From sequence record MT446416.1: a DNA stretch of 64,000 nt. The stretch is one strand, 5' to 3'. The stretch comes from Escherichia virus TH47. The first letter of the stretch is position 1, and each line of letters begins with the position of its first letter. Positions 3,862 to 27,484 of the stretch are shown piece by piece. Under the pieces are notes generated by a model. The model was not told the origin of the DNA. It made no database searches and saw nothing but the letters and a program-made list of their open reading frames with translations. The position numbers and the translations under genes were made by a program.

Positions 3862-3889
3862 ATTATATCACATTCTTTGCGTTTGTCAA
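3862..3889 (-). promoter_or_regulatory. sigma70 consensus promoter (TTGACA-N16-TGaTATAAT) driving the ClpA-like gene
   Basis: minus-strand reading gives TTGACA, 16-nt spacer, extended -10 TGATATAAT, about 35 nt upstream of the ATG; same 13-nt -10 block as the two copies at 27336-27457. Confidence 0.65.
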
Positions 3890-19829: not shown

Positions 19830-21794
19830 ATGAGTATAAATCGAATTAGAGGTGATGGTGGTGTAATTATAGATAGTCAGGCATTTCTAGAATTACCTAA
19901 AGCACCGACTAAAGAAACCGCTGATGTGGTTAGATCAGGGATGATTAGATACAATAAAGGATGGAAAGCATTTGAAGGTGTACTAGACTTTGAAGATGGT
20001 TCAATGGCATATCGACGTTTTGCAAACCTAGATGCGAACGGTAAACTTCTTACTTCCCAATTACCAGATTCAGTAACTAGTGGTTTACAATTTGTTGGTA
20101 CATATAATCCCATCCCAGATGATATCGATCCACCTTTAGCACAAACTCCACTACCAGCACCATCACCATCGCTTAATGGTGATTATTATGTCGTTCGTGG
20201 TATAATGGATGCCGCACAAGCACATTATGAAGCAAATAATCCACAAACAAGTCCTGTTACATTTACACCTACAAATCCAACTGGACAAGGTAATTGGATT
20301 GAAATTTTATATTATGTTGACTCTAATCCAAATATATCTGGTGCTAAACTAGTAACATACGCTTTTGCTAGAATTATTACTGCATCTATTCCCAGTACTG
20401 GACATGATGGCCTTGAAAATTTAGCAACAGATACTGACTTGACCAAACCATTTGCATCTGGTGTTCCAATGAACCAAACTGCACTTTCAGATGGCGATTG
20501 GATTATTATAACTGAAGATAAGAATATACGTCTTCGTCAGTCAAGAACAAGCATTTCCGCTGCTTCAGTATTATATGACAATACTGTAATGATTGCAAAT
20601 CATCGTCAATTTAGAACAAACGCAGGGACCGTTCAAACATCCATAGATAACGTTGTGATTGAGTGTTTACGTAGAACTGGCGATTCCATGTATAATGATG
20701 GAACAGACGGCTCTGGGCGTTTTGGGGTGGTGTATGGCAGTGCAGCAGCACCAGCATTGACATTTAATAATAATCCGTTTGACCCAACGAATAACCCAGG
20801 TAATGACCCAACTAAGTGGTCCGATGCTAATACTGGTATATTTCATCCATCCGATGACGCAATTGGGTTCAGCACTGCTGGCACAGAACGTGTTCGAATT
20901 AATAATGGAACACTAACATTATTCCAAACTACCGCTACACCAGCAGCTACGCCAGTAATACGTTTTGATAATGCATCAAACACAAACGTAGGGATAAGTG
21001 CAAGTAGTAATATTATTTCTTTAAGTTCAATGAATAAAGTTCAAGTTGAATTTAAAAATGGTGAATCACATTTTCATGGAAATATTATTGTAGATGGTTC
21101 AACATCACTAACTGGTGATTTAGACGCAGGTAACATCAATGCCAGCGGGAATTTAGTTGTTAAAGGTAATACAACACTAGGTGACACTACTGGTGACACT
21201 ATTACAGTTAATGGTGTTAGTACTTATAATGCAAATACTAATTTCAATGGAACTAATAACAAATTCAAAAACATAAACTTACTAGAGAATGGTGTATTCA
21301 CATTAGAAAGTACTACAAACCAAAGTGATATAAAACTACTTGGTGCAGACTTACGTTTCACTATGGGAAGTTATGCTGATGTAAGTATATATGATAACGG
21401 TGTTATTCGTACTCGTTTCAACCGATATGGTATTCAATTACCAGTACTGGCTACAATTGATAACTCGGTTGGTGTTGATGGTATGATTGCATACTCAAAT
21501 ACCGAACGTACATCGATGCAGAAGGTTCAAGGACAATGGGTTCCAATTGGTTCTGGTTCTGTTCGTACTGACCCGTTTGTTGCGTCAGCGTGGGTTTTAA
21601 ACGGCTCATATTACACATTAACAGTAACTGCTAGTAACATAGTAACTGCTGAAATTCAAGAACTCGTAAGTACTGGTGTTTACACTCGTGTTGAAGTTGA
21701 TAGTGTTACATTCAATGGAACAAGCGTAGTGTTCAGTATCCCTGCAACTCCTGATGTGAGATTTGCCGGACGTACACTGGTTACATTAAGATAA
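19830..21794 (+). CDS. tail fibre protein
   Basis: 654-aa ORF, GAGGAAA RBS; Asn/Thr/Gly-rich with fibre-type repeats; ends at bidirectional terminator. Confidence 0.55.
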   Translation: MSINRIRGDGGVIIDSQAFLELPKAPTKETADVVRSGMIRYNKGWKAFEGVLDFEDGSMAYRRFANLDANGKLLTSQLPDSVTSGLQFVGTYNPIPDDIDPPLAQTPLPAPSPSLNGDYYVVRGIMDAAQAHYEANNPQTSPVTFTPTNPTGQGNWIEILYYVDSNPNISGAKLVTYAFARIITASIPSTGHDGLENLATDTDLTKPFASGVPMNQTALSDGDWIIITEDKNIRLRQSRTSISAASVLYDNTVMIANHRQFRTNAGTVQTSIDNVVIECLRRTGDSMYNDGTDGSGRFGVVYGSAAAPALTFNNNPFDPTNNPGNDPTKWSDANTGIFHPSDDAIGFSTAGTERVRINNGTLTLFQTTATPAATPVIRFDNASNTNVGISASSNIISLSSMNKVQVEFKNGESHFHGNIIVDGSTSLTGDLDAGNINASGNLVVKGNTTLGDTTGDTITVNGVSTYNANTNFNGTNNKFKNINLLENGVFTLESTTNQSDIKLLGADLRFTMGSYADVSIYDNGVIRTRFNRYGIQLPVLATIDNSVGVDGMIAYSNTERTSMQKVQGQWVPIGSGSVRTDPFVASAWVLNGSYYTLTVTASNIVTAEIQELVSTGVYTRVEVDSVTFNGTSVVFSIPATPDVRFAGRTLVTLR

Positions 21795-21801
21795 TAAAAA
21801 A

Positions 21802-21828
21802 GGGAGACATAAGTCTCCCTTTTCTTTT
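21802..21828. terminator. bidirectional rho-independent terminator
   Basis: stem GGGAGAC/GTCTCCC flanked by A-run and T-run between convergent fibre and thymidylate synthase genes. Confidence 0.65.
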
Positions 21829-22756
21829 ATACAGCCATTGGTGCTTTGATTGTTGGCATTGGATCGTAATTAACTAATTTGAAAGAATCCATAGTGAAAT
21901 CTTCAATATCAGTAATAGTAGGATCTAACCATAATTCTGGTAATGTACGTGGTTCACGTTGGAGTTGCTCTTTTACTTGTTCAATATGGTTTTGATAGAT
22001 ATGGCAGTCGCCACCATTCCAAATAAATTCACCAACATCTAACCCAGTAATTTGTGCAATCATATGAGTTAGTAGTGAGTAACTACTAATGTTAAATGGT
22101 ACACCAAGGAATAAATCAGCACTGCGTTGATGAAGAATACAACTTAGTTTACCCTGTACAACACAAAACTGCACAAAGCTATGACAGGGTGGCAAAGTCA
22201 TAGCATCAAGCTCACCAACGTTCCATGCACTTAGAATGTGACGACGACCGTATGGATCAGTATTGATACCTTCAATAACTTGTTTTAGCTGGTCAGTTAC
22301 ACGACGCATAATAACACCATGTGAACCAGTATAATCAATAACTTTATACCCTTTATCTTTTAGTTCTTGAATTTCTTCAGTACTGGAACTGAATTTATAA
22401 TCTTCCCATTCACGCCATTGTTTACCATAAACTGGGCCAAGCTCACCATCAGAATACCCAAGGCTTACACCTTGATTAAGGTAGTTGTCTGTCCAAATTG
22501 TTTTCTTTTCTACATCACGTGTCCCGTGTAAAATTTCACACAGACGACGCTCATCGTGAGAACCTTCAATAAACCATAACAATTCTGAAGTCATTGCTTT
22601 CCAAGCCAAACGTTTAGTAGTTACTGCTGGGAAACCTTCTTTTAGGTCAAAACGCATTTGTTGTCCGATTAGCTTGATAGTGCCAACACCAGTACGATCA
22701 ACGCTTTCGACACCTTGATCCAGAATTCTTTGATATAGTTCTTGTAGTTGTTTCAT
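21827..22756 (-). CDS. thyA: thymidylate synthase (ThyA/T4 td type)
   Basis: motifs RTGVGT, FPAVTTKRLAWK, ELGPVYGKQWR, ILSAWN, LPPCH, SADLFLGVPFNISSY and C-terminal PMAV; no intron interruption. Confidence 0.9.
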   Translation of the reverse strand: MKQLQELYQRILDQGVESVDRTGVGTIKLIGQQMRFDLKEGFPAVTTKRLAWKAMTSELLWFIEGSHDERRLCEILHGTRDVEKKTIWTDNYLNQGVSLGYSDGELGPVYGKQWREWEDYKFSSSTEEIQELKDKGYKVIDYTGSHGVIMRRVTDQLKQVIEGINTDPYGRRHILSAWNVGELDAMTLPPCHSFVQFCVVQGKLSCILHQRSADLFLGVPFNISSYSLLTHMIAQITGLDVGEFIWNGGDCHIYQNHIEQVKEQLQREPRTLPELWLDPTITDIEDFTMDSFKLVNYDPMPTIKAPMAV

Positions 22757-23349
22757 TTTACGTCCTTGAAAAATGTAATAAAGTGTTCCATGTGTTTTTG
22801 TGTAGCATTACGTGAACCAATCCCAGTCCAGTTACCGTGTGGTGCTGGTATTGAGAATGTTTCAGTAAACTCTTTCAGTACTGTATCATAATAAAATACA
22901 GAGCGAGTGTTCATATCATAACAATATATTTCTGGATTATCAACTGAATCCATATACATCTGTACTGCCCATGCAGTTCCACCTGAAACTTGCGTAGGTG
23001 ATGTAATATTTGCAATACAATATACTCTTTTAGTATTAAGTATCTGATAACTATTTCTTGCAAGTAATTTATATACATACGAACCGGGCTTCGGAACTGT
23101 TCGGCGTAAAGAGTAACATGCAATGTTTAATTGTTTTAATATTGAACTATCACAAAGGATATTGGATGGAATTTCTAATATAGTATTTTCATCTACGCTG
23201 CTTTGGTGACCCTTGAATGAAAAATTTATTACTTCAAATCCATTGTCTTTTGCATAGATAGAAAAAAGGCGGTCAGCACCTGCTGCCCCGCCACTGAAAC
23301 ATACATTAGATAAACCATTGATTGCTTCATCTAATTCTATTTTATTCAT
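22753..23349 (-). CDS. Rossmann-like SLOG/DprA- or nucleoside deoxyribosyltransferase-like protein
   Basis: N-terminal glycine-rich loop CFSGGAAGADRL; translationally coupled to thymidylate synthase (ATGA overlap); family assignment tentative. Confidence 0.4.
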   Translation of the reverse strand: MNKIELDEAINGLSNVCFSGGAAGADRLFSIYAKDNGFEVINFSFKGHQSSVDENTILEIPSNILCDSSILKQLNIACYSLRRTVPKPGSYVYKLLARNSYQILNTKRVYCIANITSPTQVSGGTAWAVQMYMDSVDNPEIYCYDMNTRSVFYYDTVLKEFTETFSIPAPHGNWTGIGSRNATQKHMEHFITFFKDVK

Positions 23350-23354
23350 TTATA

Positions 23355-24008
23355 TTATTTTGCTTTACGTTCTGCAAATGCCTGTTTAACTTTCTCAATT
23401 GCTTTGGTTTGTGAAATTCCTTCTGGGATTTCAATATAGAAAGTTTTGCTATCAGGTGCTACAGGTGTTGCTTGAACTTGTGGACGTAGAGATGGTTCTA
23501 AGTTGTAAGCACGTTCAAAGTGCTCTTTAGCCAACTGCTCATAACGTTGTGCATCTTTAAGTAGTTGCTCAACAATGGTAGCTTCTTCAACAGAAGTATC
23601 AACTTCTTGTGGCTTGAATGGGTTGTATTCTTTAACTTTACCATCTTCATGTTTTTTAGTATCATTATCATTGATTGCGTTGTTTAGAACATCAAGAGAA
23701 ATCTTACTGTTTCCGCCAACATGCATATCAATATCACAAGTACGTGCACGACGCAAATGTTGTAGATTATGAAGAACATCTAGCATTTTGCGACCGTCTA
23801 GATGACCAATCTTATGCATAACTTCCCACAAATCTACATTCGATTGACCTTGATTCATTACTAAATCTGCAACAGATTGAGCATATGCTTCAGGAAGTGA
23901 GTCGCGATAAACAATGAGACAATGTTCTGGATCATCAGGGAGTGAACGCCATACCACAAATACTCGTGAACCCGTATTACGTACTACACCAACGTGACGA
24001 ATAGCCAT
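23355..24008 (-). CDS. hypothetical protein
   Basis: 217-aa ORF with strong RBS AAAGGAGAA; no motif recognised. Confidence 0.55.
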   Translation of the reverse strand: MAIRHVGVVRNTGSRVFVVWRSLPDDPEHCLIVYRDSLPEAYAQSVADLVMNQGQSNVDLWEVMHKIGHLDGRKMLDVLHNLQHLRRARTCDIDMHVGGNSKISLDVLNNAINDNDTKKHEDGKVKEYNPFKPQEVDTSVEEATIVEQLLKDAQRYEQLAKEHFERAYNLEPSLRPQVQATPVAPDSKTFYIEIPEGISQTKAIEKVKQAFAERKAK

Positions 24009-24010
24009 TA

Positions 24011-24241
24011 TTATTCTCCTTTATTTTGTTCAGCAGCAGCTTGTGCAGCATCAGCTTCTTCTTGTGCTTTGATATCTTCGAGTGCAGAGTTAGCAAACTC
24101 AACAAACTTAGATACGACTGGAGCAACATCAACAAGTTCTTCGACTTTAAATGAATTACGAGCAACAGCAGCTTCCATGATTTTAGCAGCGTTGATTAGG
24201 TCGATTAGGGTTAGTTGAATTTTTTCTGGTTCTTGTTCCAT
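24011..24241 (-). CDS. small acidic hypothetical protein
   Basis: start chosen at ATG with GGAGAG RBS (track ORF extends to 24340 across an extended -10 element at about 24272). Confidence 0.45.
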   Translation of the reverse strand: MEQEPEKIQLTLIDLINAAKIMEAAVARNSFKVEELVDVAPVVSKFVEFANSALEDIKAQEEADAAQAAAEQNKGE

Positions 24242-24350
24242 TTTAATACTCTCCATGTATGTTGTTACAAATATAATTATATCACCTTTTTCCAAGCTGT
24301 CCCGCTGAAAAAAGTAGAGAACGGAATTTTCCGTTCTCATTATTTAGTAC

Positions 24351-25760
24351 TTAGCTACGTTGACGCTTTTTGTCAGCTTCATATTCGTAGTGTACAGTTT
24401 CGCCAAATGGTGCTTGTTTGTTAGGATTACTGTGGATAACAAACAGTGTCTTACAGTAATCAGGATCACCCCATGACTGCCACGGCTCACCATCGGTAAA
24501 CATAATAAGCTGTTTAGGCTTATAGTTGTCATGCTTCATATGAACCCATACTGCTTCAAAGTCAGTACCACCACCACCTTTCACTGGATATTCGAGAATC
24601 TTACTCTCTTCACCAGTTTTGTAATCTTTAACAGTATAAACTTCAGTATCGAACGTCATGATACGGATTTTAAATTGTTTAAACTGCTTAGTGATACCCA
24701 GTACTTCACTGATGAAATCACGGAGCATATCTTCAGAGATAGAACCGGATGCATCTAGTGCAATTGCAATATCAATATCATCATCTGGTTTCATGCCTGG
24801 GAAGATTGGATTCCCGTAGAATGAACCAGTACTACCAAAACCAGCACCCCATGAACGACGATTAGGACTTTGATAAGTTGCGTCAGACTTCAACCAGCTA
24901 CGCAGTGTGCGGTGAAGTTTGGAACGCCAGTCAATCTTAGGTTCTTTGAAGTTGTTAATCATACGTGCGATTTCAGCAGGAGTACCACCTGCACGAGCAG
25001 CATTCATCATTGCTGTTTTGAAATCATCCATATAATCACGTTTTTGTTTATCACTTGAACCACCTTCTTGACCTTCTTGTGGAACGTCATGCTGGTCGAT
25101 TGTTGTACCTTTGCCTTTACCATCTTTGATATCACCAAAAGTACCGCGTGATTTACCTTCACCCTCACCACTACCAGCCTGTGGATTTCCTTCACCTTCC
25201 CCGTCTTGATCCTGTTTATCTTCTTCTTCGAGAATGTTATAAATCTCTTCAGCAGTCATACCATCGTACTTTTTATCGTACAGCCATTGGCTTTGGATTT
25301 TACCAATTTTATCACGAACAAGAATCTGGTTAATTGCATAGTCAGCAGCACGGTTATAACGCTGCGGGTCACGCATACCACGACGCAAGAAGTGGTCATA
25401 TGCACAGTGAAGAATCTCATGACAGATAACTGCAATCAGGTTTTCATCAGTCAAACCTTCTGTCATTTCTTTAAGTTGTTCTTCAGTTACTTCAGGATGT
25501 TTCTCACGAATTGCTTCTTCGTATGCGGACTTTTTGGATTGGTCCTGAATACCCATGATGAATTCTACGTTGTAGAATAAATGCTTACCATCTACTGCCA
25601 AAGTACGACACCATGTATTGTTTGCAACTGGACGCAGACGAGAAGCCAGTACACCAAAGAATGGGAATGTTAGCATTAAAGATGTGCGAGCTAAGATCAG
25701 ACGATCTTGACATTCTTTCTGGAGAGCCGGAGTAACATCACTGAAACGTTTATCTGACAT
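24351..25760 (-). CDS. vWA-domain protein with N-terminal HExxH metallopeptidase-like domain (CobT-like)
   Basis: HEILHCAYDH (HExxH) plus MIDAS DASGS in DIDIAIALDASGSISEDM; GAGGAAA RBS; directly downstream of the AAA5 ATPase. Confidence 0.75.
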   Translation of the reverse strand: MSDKRFSDVTPALQKECQDRLILARTSLMLTFPFFGVLASRLRPVANNTWCRTLAVDGKHLFYNVEFIMGIQDQSKKSAYEEAIREKHPEVTEEQLKEMTEGLTDENLIAVICHEILHCAYDHFLRRGMRDPQRYNRAADYAINQILVRDKIGKIQSQWLYDKKYDGMTAEEIYNILEEEDKQDQDGEGEGNPQAGSGEGEGKSRGTFGDIKDGKGKGTTIDQHDVPQEGQEGGSSDKQKRDYMDDFKTAMMNAARAGGTPAEIARMINNFKEPKIDWRSKLHRTLRSWLKSDATYQSPNRRSWGAGFGSTGSFYGNPIFPGMKPDDDIDIAIALDASGSISEDMLRDFISEVLGITKQFKQFKIRIMTFDTEVYTVKDYKTGEESKILEYPVKGGGGTDFEAVWVHMKHDNYKPKQLIMFTDGEPWQSWGDPDYCKTLFVIHSNPNKQAPFGETVHYEYEADKKRQRS

Positions 25761-25835
25761 TTGTATTTCCTCGTTTAGTTAAGATAAAAGAAGGATACCA
25801 TGTGGTATCCTCCTTGTCAACACTCTTTTTAATTA

Positions 25836-27164
25836 TTAACCAAGAGAGCGTGCTTTACGTACTAGGTCAGAGTACTTCATAACGAAGTCTTTAAACGCTG
25901 GTACATCTTTAATCGTAATCGCTACTTTATGAAGCGTGATGGTACGAATCGCCAGTACTGCCAGTTCTGCTTGAGTTGCAGAGAAGTTATGGTCTAGGAA
26001 GGTGATGAAGTTGTTGCACAGCTTACCCCAATCTTCCACTGGTAGACGTTGTTCTTGCTTCTCATTGTAGAGGTCGATAATTTTGTAAACCAGATTCAGA
26101 GTGATGAAGTAGTTCGCGGAAATATCAAGCGAAGCATCAATCTCTTTAATCTCACCCTGTAGGATGGACATGGTATCTGGTAGTTTAGCTACGTTATCAA
26201 CATACTCGATGTATTCAGTTGCTACGCCTTCACCAACACGACCTGCAATCATCGCACGGAACACTTCTTTATCAATGTTCTTAACTTTCTTCAGATCTTC
26301 GTAGCGTGCTACTGCTTCCCATGAACGTGGAGAAGTACCACCACAGTGAGAAGGATCTTGTGGGCTAAGGGTGTTGAAGTGTTTAGCACCAGTGTTGTTG
26401 ATGAACGCAACAGTTGCTGGGTTCAAACGCTTGCCAATCGCATAATCGTTAATCCAATCTTGATGATAAGGAATCATTTCGATGTGGGTCATACGGTCAC
26501 GCAGTGGTGTAGCTAGAGAGAACGTTACACCGCCATCAGTTTCACGGTTACCTGCTGCGAGAATCAGTGCAGTCTTAGGTAGCTTCATCTCACCAACACA
26601 ACGGTCGAGGATTAGCTGGTAAGACGCTGCCTGTACAATCGGCATTGCAGAGTTGATTTCGTCAAACAGGATAACACCTTTCCAATCATCGGGCAATTTC
26701 AGTACTTTTGGTGCTGCCCACACAACTGCTGTTTCAGCGATGTAATCTTGTGCACTAGCCAGTTCAGATTCAATCAGTTGCTTACCATCCATATCAAGGA
26801 ACACTTTCTCTGGAACTGGAATACCACGAAGGTCACTTGGTTCAATCTGAGACAAACGGAAATCGATAAAGTTAGTGTCTTGGTCGATTAGTTTGGCTTC
26901 AAACGCTGCCAGTTCACGGCGAAGTTGATCGGCATTTTCAGTATCAGCTTCGATTTGTTGTTTCATGAACTCAATTTTTGCCACGTTATCTTTACGCAGT
27001 GGGTAGTTCTCATCAGCGTATTGACGTGCGATAGCAGATTTACCGATACCAGGGCTACCCCAAATCATCAGGCTATCTTGAATCATGTCAGCCAGTGCCA
27101 TTGCTTCTTTAGCTTTCTTAGGAGTCAGTTTTACGTTCAGGATATCGTTGTTTTGAGTAGACAT
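25836..27164 (-). CDS. MoxR/CobS-type AAA+ ATPase (AAA_5 family)
   Basis: Walker A GSPGIGKS, Walker B ILFDEINSA; AAGGAAA RBS. Confidence 0.8.
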   Translation of the reverse strand: MSTQNNDILNVKLTPKKAKEAMALADMIQDSLMIWGSPGIGKSAIARQYADENYPLRKDNVAKIEFMKQQIEADTENADQLRRELAAFEAKLIDQDTNFIDFRLSQIEPSDLRGIPVPEKVFLDMDGKQLIESELASAQDYIAETAVVWAAPKVLKLPDDWKGVILFDEINSAMPIVQAASYQLILDRCVGEMKLPKTALILAAGNRETDGGVTFSLATPLRDRMTHIEMIPYHQDWINDYAIGKRLNPATVAFINNTGAKHFNTLSPQDPSHCGGTSPRSWEAVARYEDLKKVKNIDKEVFRAMIAGRVGEGVATEYIEYVDNVAKLPDTMSILQGEIKEIDASLDISANYFITLNLVYKIIDLYNEKQEQRLPVEDWGKLCNNFITFLDHNFSATQAELAVLAIRTITLHKVAITIKDVPAFKDFVMKYSDLVRKARSLG

Positions 27165-27230
27165 GTATATTTTCCTTTTGTTGGATAAAATCGTTTAGGT
27201 TTCTATTATAGCCAATCCGTGGGCAAAAGT

Positions 27231-27273
27231 AAAGGAACTGTGTTAAAAGAATTTTTAACTTATCAGTTCCTTT
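27231..27273 (-). promoter_or_regulatory. extended palindromic hairpin in the 5' leader of the AAA5 ATPase operon
   Basis: perfect 10-bp stem AAAGGAACTG/CAGTTCCTTT enclosing an inner 7-bp palindrome GTTAAAA/TTTTAAC; lies between the promoters and the start codon. Confidence 0.5.
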
Positions 27274-27335
27274 GTTACTTCATGAATCATCCGTGTATTT
27301 AAAAAGGCATTTCTCTTTGCCGTCTTGATGTGGTC

Positions 27336-27363
27336 ATTATATCACATCGTTCAGGCTTGTCAA
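27336..27363 (-). promoter_or_regulatory. sigma70 consensus promoter, proximal copy (TTGACA-N16-TGaTATAAT)
   Basis: exact -35 and extended -10 with 16-nt spacer and A-rich UP-like tract upstream on the minus strand. Confidence 0.65.
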
Positions 27364-27429
27364 CAACTTTTTTTTATTTCTTTTTCAATCTCACATCTTG
27401 TGATTTTGAAAACTTGCTTCGTGGTGGTC

Positions 27430-27457
27430 ATTATATCACATCATTCGGCGTTGTCAA
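27430..27457 (-). promoter_or_regulatory. sigma70 consensus promoter, distal tandem copy
   Basis: second copy of the same CATTATATCACAT-N8-TTGTCAACA module 94 nt upstream of the first. Confidence 0.65.
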
Positions 27458-27484
27458 CATCTTTTTTTTTCTTTATTTTCGAAG

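What the first reader, a model, noticed from the sequence alone, without database searches (positions are those of the whole stretch)
22753..27470. Early operon: tandem consensus promoters, CobS-like AAA5 ATPase, CobT-like vWA/HExxH protein, two unknowns, SLOG-like protein, thymidylate synthase
The MoxR-class ATPase paired with a vWA protein carrying an HExxH metallopeptidase-like N-domain forms a two-component chaperone-like system of unclear function in phages, usually labelled cobS/cobT. Here it is driven by duplicated strong promoters and is co-transcribed with a glycine-loop Rossmann protein and thymidylate synthase. The arrangement hints at a role in nucleotide or cofactor handling, or in remodelling a host target, rather than cobalamin synthesis.
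Basis: partly seen in the sequence, partly recalled or inferred. Interest (0 to 1): 0.55.

Follow-up and report, generated by a model that had tools for sequence, protein, structure and literature searches.

The report
Phage MoxR ATPase–vWA peptidase pair
This stretch of a jumbo coliphage encodes an already described but functionally unsolved two-protein machine, an ATP-driven MoxR motor plus a partner that joins a zinc-protease domain to a metal-dependent binding domain; it is the same pair as phage N4 gp24/gp25, it is not a vitamin-B12 enzyme, and transposon data from a related phage link it to overcoming a bacterial defence system.

Summary
The window is an Asteriusvirus-type jumbo coliphage, 99% identical to published genomes. 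The 442-aa ATPase has intact AAA+ motifs, and its model is closest to the MoxR proteins CbbQ and NorQ. The 469-aa partner is DUF2201_N (invariant HExxH) plus DUF2201/vWA (intact MIDAS). Two perfect extended -10 sigma70 promoters sit in tandem upstream.

Three points need correcting:
- The pair is not CobS/CobT. It belongs to the phage N4 gp24/gp25 family, which is core in N4-like phages, occurs in 730 phage records, and was already noted in this jumbo-phage group (Iyer et al. 2021).
- The six genes are not one simple operon. Terminator-like hairpins are conserved in the leader, between the ATPase and vWA genes, and after the vWA gene. A conserved promoter follows the last hairpin and serves the small ORF, the 217-aa ORF, SLOG and thyA.
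- Context outside Rak2-like phages is early or replication genes, not virion genes.

In the rV5-like phage Bas54, both homologs are dispensable on K-12. The ATPase is needed against defence system DS-28. The best reading is an early-made, ATP-driven, MIDAS-targeted remodeller and protease acting on a host protein. The family is known; the function is still open.

The parts
27430..27457 (-). Promoter P1: TTGACA-16 nt-TATAAT with a TG extended -10, preceded by an A-tract (UP-like)
   Evidence: 12/12 consensus match; pattern search; sequence read. Conserved in Asteriusvirus relatives.
27336..27363 (-). Promoter P2: second perfect extended -10 sigma70 promoter, a tandem copy of P1
   Evidence: 57-nt direct repeat 27330-27386 / 27424-27480, 84% identical, spacing 94 nt. 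Copy number varies among relatives: 3 in SP27, 2 in Asteriusvirus, 1 in K64-1, RCIP0023 and Munch.
27227..27280 (-). Leader stem-loop with interrupted U-tract (terminator/attenuator-like), about 62 nt upstream of the ATPase start codon
   Evidence: dG -16 kcal/mol. A hairpin at the same distance (48-67 nt; 130 nt in the Vibrio phage) occurs in all 11 related leaders examined, with compensatory stem changes. Annotated as a terminator in G17. No Rfam family matches.
25836..27164 (-). gp24-like MoxR-class AAA+ ATPase, 442 aa. Walker A GSPGIGKS at 27036-27059; Walker B DE at 26658-26663; MoxR-type motif DFRLSQIEPSDLRGIP
25788..25815 (-). Intercistronic hairpin plus U-tract between the ATPase and vWA genes. 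In Asteriusvirus and Alcyoneusvirus it overlaps a TTGACA-17-TGgTATCCT promoter-like site (25792-25820)
   Evidence: 12-bp stem. A hairpin plus U-tract at this position in 8 of 9 lineages, with unrelated sequences. Annotated as a terminator in phage Munch.
24351..25760 (-). gp25-like protein, 469 aa: N-terminal zincin-like DUF2201_N (HEILH at 25407-25421), a disordered acidic/Gly linker with invariant D222-x-H224, and a C-terminal vWA domain (MIDAS DASGS at 24741-24755, T399, D423)
24308..24338 (-). Terminator-like hairpin (9 bp) plus U-tract after the vWA gene
   Evidence: A positionally conserved hairpin in the 8 lineages checked. Annotated as a terminator in G17 and Munch.
24276..24303 (-). 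Internal promoter: GGGACA-16-TGaTATAAT, serving the downstream gene block
   Evidence: A promoter follows the terminator in all 8 lineages: GGGACA type in Asteriusvirus and Munch, a lone extended -10 (TGaTATAAT) with no matching -35 in RCIP0023, and TGAAAC...TGgTATAAT type in BF, GAP32 and two metagenomic relatives.
24011..24241 (-). Small acidic protein (76 aa from the ATG at 24241 with GGAG SD; pI 4.3), function unknown
   Evidence: phrog_13789 1.1e-31, with the match starting at residue 29 of the mechanical ORF. Start region read. Properties.
23355..24008 (-). 217-aa protein of unknown function (phrog_15894)
   Evidence: At least 500 cluster representatives with E<=1e-3. Among isolates it occurs in Rak2-like phages, the PA5oct group, Atu_ph07 and a few other genera. 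No Pfam or PDB match.
22753..23349 (-). SLOG-superfamily protein, 198 aa, YAcAr/cpYpsA-like: SGGAxGAD and SGGTAWAVQ loops, with a GIGSR strand at the C-terminus (suggesting a circular permutation)
   Evidence: phrog_768 4.2e-27. Pfam YAcAr 1.3e-3, below cut-off; 7 of 27 family members hit it. Motifs. The stop codon overlaps the thyA start by 4 nt.
21827..22756 (-). Thymidylate synthase ThyA, 309 aa, uninterrupted
   Evidence: Pfam 3.6e-101. NCBIfam NF002497 343 bits against a 327-bit cut-off. PPCH catalytic motif in the translation.
21796..21825 (.). Bidirectional terminator between thyA and the convergent tail-fibre-like gene
   Evidence: 13-bp stem, T-runs on both strands. Annotated in G17 and Munch.

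Best explanation
The core of the finding is a two-component, ATP-driven protein remodeller and protease of the phage N4 gp24/gp25 family.

Proposed mechanism:
- The gp24-like protein is a MoxR-class AAA+ ATPase and presumably forms a hexamer.
- Its partner carries a vWA domain. An intact MIDAS should capture an acidic residue of a client protein, as in CbbQ-CbbO, NorQ-NorD and midasin.
- The partner also carries an N-terminal zincin (HExxH) domain that would cut the captured client.

Expression:
- Host RNA polymerase drives the pair from one to three strong sigma70 promoters, so it is made early or in the middle of infection.
- Expression is shaped by a conserved leader hairpin and by a leaky terminator between the two genes. 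That terminator would yield more ATPase than partner, which suits a 6:1 complex.
- The small ORF, the 217-aa ORF, the SLOG gene and thyA form a separate downstream unit with its own conserved promoter.

Most likely role: neutralising or remodelling a host protein early in infection (counter-defence or host take-over), not cobalamin synthesis and not an obligatory step in virion assembly.

Shown: domain identities, motif integrity, homology to N4 gp24/gp25 and to Bas54 0063/0055, promoter and hairpin conservation.
Inferred: hexamer formation, MIDAS-client capture, proteolysis, stoichiometry control, timing, and transfer of the Bas54 phenotype to this phage.
For: Identity:
- Pfam DUF2201_N and DUF2201.
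- Invariant H114/E115/H118 and D336/S338/S340/T399/D423.
- Invariant Walker A/B, N206, R224 and R280, plus the MoxR-type DLRGIP motif.
- More distant homologs carry AAA_5, AAA_3 and bpMoxR, and bacterial relatives pass the AAA_5 cut-off.

Family:
- hhalign to N4 gp24, probability 99.9.
- The vWA protein matches 730 phage records, including N4-like, rV5-like, PA5oct and Atu_ph07 phages.
- K64-1 annotates the two genes as gp24-like and gp25-like.
- gp24 and gp25 are core middle genes of N4-like phages (PMC4193335).

Timing and context:
- Perfect sigma70 promoters.
- rV5 annotates sigma70 promoters in the early region that holds both genes, one of them directly upstream of the ATPase gene.
- Neighbours elsewhere are dCTP deaminase and thyA (N4), helicase and DNA polymerase, and ligase and DnaN.

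Function (HIDEN-SEQ preprint 10.1101/2025.11.20.689424):
- In Bas54 the homologous ATPase (BLASTP 2e-31) and metallopeptidase-vWA (1e-53) are non-essential on K-12.
- Both are depleted on a clinical isolate (log2FC -7.23 and -2.20, adjusted p 0 and 0.009).
- The ATPase knockout fails against cloned defence system DS-28.

Transcription units.
Against: - No experiment exists on this phage or any Rak2-like phage.
- Bas54 homologs are only 24-29% identical, so the target may differ.
- The Bas54 evidence is one preprint. The partner's effect was much weaker than the ATPase's, and the supplement sheet title (CFE303) disagrees with its command line (311 library).
- Being a core gene in all N4-like phages is unusual for a counter-defence factor.
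- In Rak2-like phages the pair lies between virion structural genes. This fits the published virion-assembly proposal (PMC7824862).
- PADLOC has no match.
- Proteolytic activity of DUF2201_N has never been shown, and the domain has no solved relative.
Confidence: 0.5

Rival explanations
1. Virion-assembly chaperone with a maturation peptidase. The MoxR-vWA pair folds or assembles structural proteins (tail, fibres or head) and the fused zincin trims them. Iyer et al. 2021 proposed this for group 2.2 jumbo phages, by analogy with Acidianus two-tailed virus p618/p892.
For: - The published proposal (PMC7824862).
- In all Rak2-like genomes checked, the block is flanked on both sides by genes annotated or PHROG-classed as virion structural.
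- MoxR-vWA pairs are generally assembly or maturation factors (PMC7159879).
Against: - The pair has its own host-type sigma70 promoters instead of sharing late transcription with its neighbours.
- In N4-like, rV5-like and Luzseptimavirus phages and in prophage-like elements, it sits among early or replication genes.
- N4 gp24 and gp25 are middle transcripts.
- Both Bas54 homologs tolerate transposon insertions on K-12, so they are not needed to build infectious particles there.
- They are not labelled structural in 121Q-derived annotations, while their neighbours are.
Confidence: 0.15
2. Metal-centre or cofactor insertion chaperone for a phage or host enzyme of nucleotide metabolism or replication (for example ribonucleotide reductase). 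It would work like NorQ-NorD, CoxD-CoxE or the CobS-CobT and BchI-BchD chelatases.
For: - The closest structural relatives, CbbQ and NorQ, act with vWA partners on metalloenzymes; 9qh8 NorQ-NorD appears among the vWA hits.
- There is a recurrent neighbourhood with thyA, dCTP deaminase, helicase, polymerase, ligase and DnaN.
- Atu_ph07 has a glutaredoxin nearby.
Against: - No CobS_N, CobT or CobT_C match, and no cobalamin genes in the flanks.
- An invariant HExxH zincin domain has no role in known insertases.
- thyA lies in a separate transcription unit here.
- Co-location may reflect only shared middle-gene timing.
- Bas54 homologs are dispensable on K-12, which is hard to square with maturation of an essential replication enzyme.
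Confidence: 0.15
3. A true CobS/CobT cobaltochelatase module (an auxiliary metabolic gene for cobalamin), as the common database label used by the first reader implies.
For: Only the generic architecture of an AAA_5-type ATPase followed by a vWA protein.
Against: - No CobS_N, CobT or CobT_C profile hit at E<=0.1.
- The PHROG families matched are 1297 and 1314, not cobalamin families.
- NCBIfam has no match.
- The partner has a zincin domain that CobT lacks.
- There is no CobN-like gene in the neighbourhood.
Confidence: 0.02

Closest known systems
Bacteriophage N4 gp24 / gp25 (core genes of Schitoviridae)
   Same: - They are homologous over nearly the full length: hhalign probability 99.9 for gp24, and tblastn hits of the vWA protein in N4-type genomes.
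- The order is the same, ATPase followed by the vWA/metallopeptidase protein.
- Expression is not late.
- dCTP deaminase and thymidylate synthase lie a few genes downstream in N4.
- Function is unknown in both.
   Different: - The jumbo-phage ATPase carries two inserts, about 40 aa of coiled coil after Walker A and about 30 aa before Walker B.
- The jumbo-phage partner has an extra ~45-aa insert and a longer acidic linker.
- N4 transcribes its middle genes with its own RNAP II, whereas here the promoters are host sigma70 type.
- Here the block is embedded between virion genes.
MoxR-vWA pair with N-terminal metallopeptidase in group 2.2 jumbo phages (Iyer, Anantharaman, Krishnan, Burroughs, Aravind 2021, Viruses 13:63)
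   Same: The domain architecture and phage group are the same. The paper's example accessions (ASV44729/ASV44728) look like the adjacent Atu_ph07 pair, but this is my inference from the accession range and is not verified. The Atu_ph07 vWA protein is 30% identical to the window's over 94% of its length.
   Different: That paper proposes a role in virion assembly and processing. The evidence gathered here (sigma70 promoters, contexts in other phages, dispensability in Bas54) points elsewhere.
Bas54 (Escherichia phage MaxBurger) bas54_0063 MoxR ATPase and bas54_0055 putative metallopeptidase
   Same: They are homologs (BLASTP 2e-31 and 1e-53) and lie in an early region. They are the only family members with phenotypes: non-essential on K-12, with the ATPase needed against defence system DS-28.
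   Different: - Identity is 24-29%.
- The two genes are 8 genes apart, on opposite strands.
- The second anti-DS-28 gene, bas54_0140, has no homolog in the window.
CbbQ-CbbO and NorQ-NorD (bacterial MoxR AAA+ / vWA-MIDAS remodelling pairs)
   Different: - Sequence identity is about 15%.
- CbbO and NorD have no peptidase domain.
- Their clients are Rubisco and nitric-oxide reductase.
- The phage ATPase has a long alpha-helical C-terminal extension (residues ~280-442).
CobS / CobT aerobic cobaltochelatase subunits
   Same: An AAA_5-type ATPase next to a vWA protein.
   Different: The defining CobS_N, CobT and CobT_C domains are absent, there is no CobN context, and the partner carries a zincin domain.
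Acidianus two-tailed virus p618 (MoxR) / p892 (vWA)
   Same: A viral MoxR-vWA pair, cited as the precedent for a chaperone role.
   Different: It has no peptidase domain. It belongs to an archaeal virus and acts in extracellular tail development. No sequence comparison was run here.

Membership tests
MoxR-class AAA+ ATPase (Pfam AAA_5/AAA_3; CbbQ/NorQ/RavA group) | Intact Walker A, Walker B, sensor 1, arginine finger and sensor 2 | tested here: met
   G36, G39, K42, S43, D168, E169, N206, R207, R224 and R280 are invariant in 42 homologs.
MoxR-class AAA+ ATPase (Pfam AAA_5/AAA_3; CbbQ/NorQ/RavA group) | Profile match to AAA_5 or AAA_3 above the curated cut-off | tested here: inconclusive
   The window protein scores AAA_5 15.4 (cut-off 22) and AAA_3 16.8 (cut-off 27). 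Homologs without the two inserts carry AAA_5, AAA_3 or bpMoxR. Rhizobiales relatives score 28-29 on AAA_5 and align to the family profile at E 6e-40.
MoxR-class AAA+ ATPase (Pfam AAA_5/AAA_3; CbbQ/NorQ/RavA group) | Fold closest to known MoxR proteins | tested here: met
MoxR-class AAA+ ATPase (Pfam AAA_5/AAA_3; CbbQ/NorQ/RavA group) | Genomic pairing with a vWA/MIDAS protein | tested here: met
   The two genes are adjacent here and in Rak2-like, N4-like and Atu_ph07 phages and in metagenomic phage contigs.
MoxR-class AAA+ ATPase (Pfam AAA_5/AAA_3; CbbQ/NorQ/RavA group) | Hexamer formation and ATPase activity | not testable with these tools
   Needs biochemistry or multimer modelling.
DUF2201_N + DUF2201 protein (N4 gp25-like; 'predicted metal-dependent peptidase') | Both Pfam domains above cut-off, in this order | tested here: met
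   125.3 bits (cut-off 23.2) and 77.8 bits (cut-off 26.4).
DUF2201_N + DUF2201 protein (N4 gp25-like; 'predicted metal-dependent peptidase') | HExxH zinc-binding and catalytic motif intact | tested here: met
   H114, E115 and H118 are invariant in 31 homologs.
DUF2201_N + DUF2201 protein (N4 gp25-like; 'predicted metal-dependent peptidase') | vWA fold with a complete MIDAS (DxSxS...T...D) | tested here: met
DUF2201_N + DUF2201 protein (N4 gp25-like; 'predicted metal-dependent peptidase') | Peptidase activity | not testable with these tools
   No solved or characterised relative of the N-domain was found.
CobS/CobT cobaltochelatase | CobS_N on the ATPase; CobT / CobT_C on the vWA protein | tested here: not met
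   None is listed at E<=0.1 in Pfam. No NCBIfam match.
CobS/CobT cobaltochelatase | Association with CobN or other cobalamin genes | tested here: not met
   None among the ORFs and annotations from 19.8 to 29.2 kb or in the homologous regions of relatives. The rest of the genome was not examined.
HNH endonuclease (label of phrog_1314 and many GenBank records) | HNH/His-Me finger domain | tested here: not met
   No HNH-family Pfam hit. The label appears to be a mis-annotation.
SLOG superfamily (YAcAr / cpYpsA-like) | Profile match above cut-off | tested here: inconclusive
   YAcAr scores 19.0 against a 28.2 cut-off. Seven of 27 family members hit it at E<0.01 and one hits DprA. phrog_768 'DprA-like' 4.2e-27.
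SLOG superfamily (YAcAr / cpYpsA-like) | Glycine-rich nucleotide-binding loops | tested here: met
   SGGAxGAD and SGGTAWAVQ are invariant or nearly so, and GIGSR sits at the C-terminus. Reading these as the SLOG signature rests on my knowledge of the superfamily.
Thymidylate synthase ThyA | Full-length profile match above the curated cut-off, with the catalytic Cys motif | tested here: met
   Pfam 338 bits; NCBIfam NF002497 343 bits against 327; PPCH present.
Single sigma70-driven six-gene operon | No internal terminators or promoters between the first and last gene | tested here: not met
   Hairpin plus U-tract in the leader, between ATPase and vWA, and after vWA. A conserved promoter follows the last one. 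Actual read-through was not measured.
Anti-defence gene (as Bas54 bas54_0063) | Dispensable on a defence-poor host, required on a host carrying the cognate system | not testable with these tools
   Shown only for the Bas54 homolog. Homology to it was tested and met.

The most novel reading that the evidence does not exclude
The gp24/gp25-type MoxR-vWA-zincin pair is a widespread, ATP-powered counter-defence protease. It is present in more than 700 sequenced phages and in every N4-like phage. The MIDAS would seize a host immune or stress protein (DS-28 being the first known target system), the AAA+ ring would pull on it, and the fused zincin would cut it. In Rak2-like jumbo phages the conserved leader terminator behind the strong sigma70 promoters would act as a delayed-early switch, read through only once a phage factor is made.
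Probability: 0.25. Interest if true: 0.7.

Novelty: already known. Interest (0 to 1): 0.3.

Why it matters
The pair is one of the few genes shared by very different virulent phages: all N4-like phages, rV5-like phages, Rak2-like jumbo phages, and the PA5oct and Atu_ph07 lineages. It still has no demonstrated activity. Three results would be useful if the counter-defence or host-remodelling reading holds:
- It would define a new mechanistic class of phage effector, an AAA+-assisted, MIDAS-targeted protease.
- It would explain a core gene pair of Schitoviridae.
- It would matter for choosing therapeutic phages against strains that carry the cognate defence system.

For annotation, the analysis shows that the labels 'CobS/CobT' and 'HNH endonuclease' should not be used for these genes. 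As a scan finding it is ordinary: the sequence is 99% identical to published genomes and the architecture has been described.

Tried and rejected
- Sequence and profile searches of the PDB for both proteins gave only generic Walker A (p97, RuvB) and integrin I-domain matches.
- PADLOC and NCBIfam gave nothing for the five non-ThyA proteins.
- Rfam at a permissive threshold found no family for the leader. The sraA hits are the thyA terminator.
- The third promoter-like site, TTTACT-17-TATAAT (27233-27205), was rejected as a conserved element. Its -10 is not kept outside Asteriusvirus.
- The long-range pairing that RNAfold predicted in the leader was not pursued, because the 3' partner is not conserved in K64-1.
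- The PA5oct omics paper, the fEgEco12 paper, a transposon-mutagenesis preprint and the CRISPRi-ART paper held nothing on these genes in their main text.
- A search for what DS-28 consists of gave nothing useful.
- bas54_0140, the second anti-DS-28 gene, has no homolog in the window.
- Profile searches for the 217-aa protein and the SLOG-like protein against the PDB gave no credible match.
- The CobS/CobT and HNH endonuclease readings were rejected.

Full report
**What the window is.** The region 21.8-27.6 kb is 99% identical to several published jumbo coliphages (Turkey3, Ecwhy_1, fEgEco12, WPEC3/5). It is about 85% identical to 121Q, PBECO4 and G17, genus Asteriusvirus. These belong to the Rak2-like group of roughly 350-kb myoviruses.

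**Check of the observation.** Six ORFs lie head to tail on the minus strand:
- ATPase, 25836-27164
- HExxH/vWA protein, 24351-25760
- a small ORF
- a 217-aa ORF, 23355-24008
- a glycine-loop protein, 22753-23349
- thymidylate synthase, 21827-22756

The last gene lies outside the coordinates given in the finding.

Upstream of the ATPase gene are two perfect TTGACA-16-TGTGATATAAT promoters, each preceded by an A-tract. They sit inside a 57-nt direct repeat spaced 94 nt. The 64-kb window contains only three such sites against 0.12 expected, and none of 100 shuffles reached three. RpoD-like promoters with UP-like elements are already described for this phage group (PMC5259590). The duplication is conserved in Asteriusvirus, is triplicated in SP27, and is single in Alcyoneusvirus and in phage Munch.

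**The ATPase.** On its own it matches AAA-type Pfam profiles only weakly (AAA_5 15.4 bits, cut-off 22). Two lineage-specific inserts split the core. The classification as MoxR-class rests on the following:
- All catalytic motifs are invariant in 42 homologs, and there is a MoxR-type DFRLSQIEPSDLRGIP motif.
- Shorter homologs carry AAA_5, AAA_3 and bpMoxR domains.
- Bacterial relatives pass the AAA_5 cut-off and align to the family profile at E 6e-40.

**The partner.** It is DUF2201_N (4e-36) plus DUF2201/vWA (1e-21).
- H114, E115 and H118 of the HExxH motif are invariant, as are the five MIDAS residues D336, S338, S340, T399 and D423.
- The N-terminal domain has no detectable solved relative.
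- A disordered acidic/glycine linker carries an invariant D222-x-H224 motif of unknown role.
- There is no CobS_N, CobT or CobT_C match and no HNH domain, despite the PHROG and GenBank label 'HNH endonuclease'.

**What family this is.**
- The vWA protein matches 730 phage records: Rak2-like jumbo phages, the PA5oct group, Atu_ph07, rV5-like Vequintavirinae and many N4-like Schitoviridae.
- The ATPase profile aligns with N4 gp24 (probability 99.9), rV5 ORF4 'MoxR ATPase' and the PA5oct-type ATPase.
- GenBank already labels the K64-1 genes gp24-like and gp25-like.
- N4 gp24 (unknown) and gp25 (vWFA) are two of only 14 core genes of N4-like phages and are middle transcripts (PMC4193335).
- Iyer et al. 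2021 explicitly described a MoxR AAA+ / vWA pair with an N-terminal metallopeptidase in group 2.2 jumbo phages. They proposed a virion-assembly and processing role, by analogy with ATV p618/p892 (PMC7824862).

The architecture is therefore known.

**Transcription architecture.** The six genes are not one simple operon.
- *Leader hairpin.* A stem-loop with a U-rich tail lies 48-67 nt upstream of the ATPase start codon in 10 of the 11 related leaders examined (130 nt in a Vibrio phage), downstream of the promoter. The stem shows compensatory changes: GGAACUG/CAGUUCC, GGCACUG/CAGUGCC, AGCACUG/CAGUGCU, GGCACAGA/UCUGUGCC.
- *Leader conservation.* The leader is nearly invariant between the window and G17, although their coding regions differ by about 15%.
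- *Second hairpin.* Another hairpin plus U-tract separates the ATPase and vWA genes in 8 of 9 lineages. The sequences are unrelated, as expected of terminators kept by position.
- *Third hairpin and internal promoter.* A third hairpin follows the vWA gene in all 8 lineages checked, and each is followed by a promoter. The promoter is GGGACA-16-TGaTATAAT here and in Munch. In Eneladusvirus, GAP32 and related phages it is the TGAAAC...TGgTATAAT class, which the CBB paper associates with DNA-synthesis genes.

I infer two tandem units: leader-ATPase-(leaky terminator)-vWA, and small ORF-217 aa-SLOG-thyA. The intercistronic terminator would give an excess of ATPase over partner, which suits a hexamer-plus-one complex. 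That last point is inference only.

**Other genes.**
- The 198-aa protein has SLOG-type glycine loops and a C-terminal GIGSR strand that suggests a circular permutation. It matches phrog_768, but Pfam YAcAr only below threshold.
- The 217-aa protein belongs to a large family with no known function.
- ThyA is complete and passes all cut-offs. Some relatives carry an intron-type endonuclease insertion in thyA.

**Biological role.**
- In Rak2-like phages the block lies between virion genes. This fits the published assembly idea.
- Everywhere else the pair lies among early or replication genes:
  - N4, next to dCTP deaminase and thyA
  - Luzseptimavirus and VCO139, next to helicase and DNA polymerase
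  - rV5 and Bas54, in an early region with sigma70 promoters, an anti-sigma factor, rIIA/B and helicase
  - Rhizobiales prophage-like elements, with DNA ligase and a DnaN copy
- The only phenotypes come from the HIDEN-SEQ preprint (10.1101/2025.11.20.689424), for homologs of the window's proteins (2e-31 and 1e-53):
  - In Bas54, bas54_0063 and bas54_0055 tolerate insertions at 60 of 64 and 81 of 86 TA sites on K-12.
  - On a clinical isolate they are depleted, with log2FC -7.23 and -2.20 (adjusted p 0 and 0.009).
  - The 0063 knockout is specifically required to overcome the cloned defence system DS-28.
  - The supplement's sheet title and command line disagree on the isolate.

This argues against an obligatory morphogenetic role. 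It favours an early, host-directed function such as counter-defence. Transfer to this phage is an inference across 24-29% identity.

**Verdict.** The family label CobS/CobT is wrong, and the operon claim is too simple. The pair is a known, widely distributed and experimentally almost untouched phage module. As a scan finding it is ordinary. Its open function is now directly testable.

Noticed in passing
window 27227-27280 (and the leaders of L001, L003, L007, L008, L010, L011, L037-L040): A terminator-like hairpin sits between the strong promoters and the ATPase start codon. It keeps a nearly constant distance (48-67 nt) across Rak2-like genera, shows compensatory stem changes, and is flanked by a repeated (A/U)GGAU motif. 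The 165-nt leader is far better conserved than the coding sequence. It could be an attenuator, a short RNA or a 5' stabiliser.
   Followed up: partly
window 3862-3889 (-): The only other perfect TTGACA-16-TGTGATATAAT promoter in the 64-kb window. The gene it serves was not examined.
   Followed up: no
L009 (Escherichia phage SP27) 205-635: SP27 carries three copies of the promoter unit where Asteriusvirus relatives have two and Klebsiella relatives have one. The promoter repeat therefore expands and contracts.
   Followed up: partly
window 25792-25820 (-): A TTGACA-17-TGgTATCCT promoter-like site is embedded in the terminator hairpin between the ATPase and vWA genes. It is conserved in G17, and in RCIP0023 as TTTACA, but is absent from Eneladusvirus, GAP32 and Munch.
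   Followed up: partly
window 24351-25760 (-), residues 180-235: The disordered acidic/glycine linker between the zincin and vWA domains contains an invariant D222-x-H224 motif. It may be an extra metal ligand or an intramolecular plug.
   Followed up: no
L002 (Klebsiella phage RCIP0023) 8229-10186: In this relative thyA is split by an 'intron-associated endonuclease', as with the T4 td intron. WPEC5 and CMSTMSU also list two thymidylate synthase features. The window's thyA is uninterrupted.
   Followed up: no
window 23355-24008 (-): The 217-aa protein (phrog_15894) belongs to a large uncharacterised family, with at least 500 cluster representatives and invariant H5, G7, L38 and H80. Among isolates it occurs in Rak2-like, PA5oct-group and Atu_ph07 jumbo phages and a few other genera; in the three jumbo groups examined it co-occurs with the MoxR-vWA pair.
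   Followed up: partly
window 24351-25760 (-); phrog_1314; many GenBank records: The gp25-like protein is widely mis-annotated as 'HNH endonuclease'. No HNH domain is detectable.
   Followed up: yes
L025 and L029 (Brucella pecoris, Rhizobium sp. CF080 chromosomes): Bacterial copies of the pair sit in prophage-like blocks. Several small ORFs lie between the two genes, and an ATP-dependent DNA ligase (L025) and an extra DnaN sliding clamp lie downstream.
   Followed up: partly
window 40000-64000: G+C drops to 0.31-0.35 with strongly negative GC skew, unlike the 0.37-0.41 of the first 30 kb. This is probably a block of small early genes on the minus strand.
   Followed up: no
window 21734-21879: Sub-threshold Rfam 'sraA' hits on both strands coincide with the bidirectional terminator after thyA. 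They are most likely just the hairpin.
   Followed up: yes
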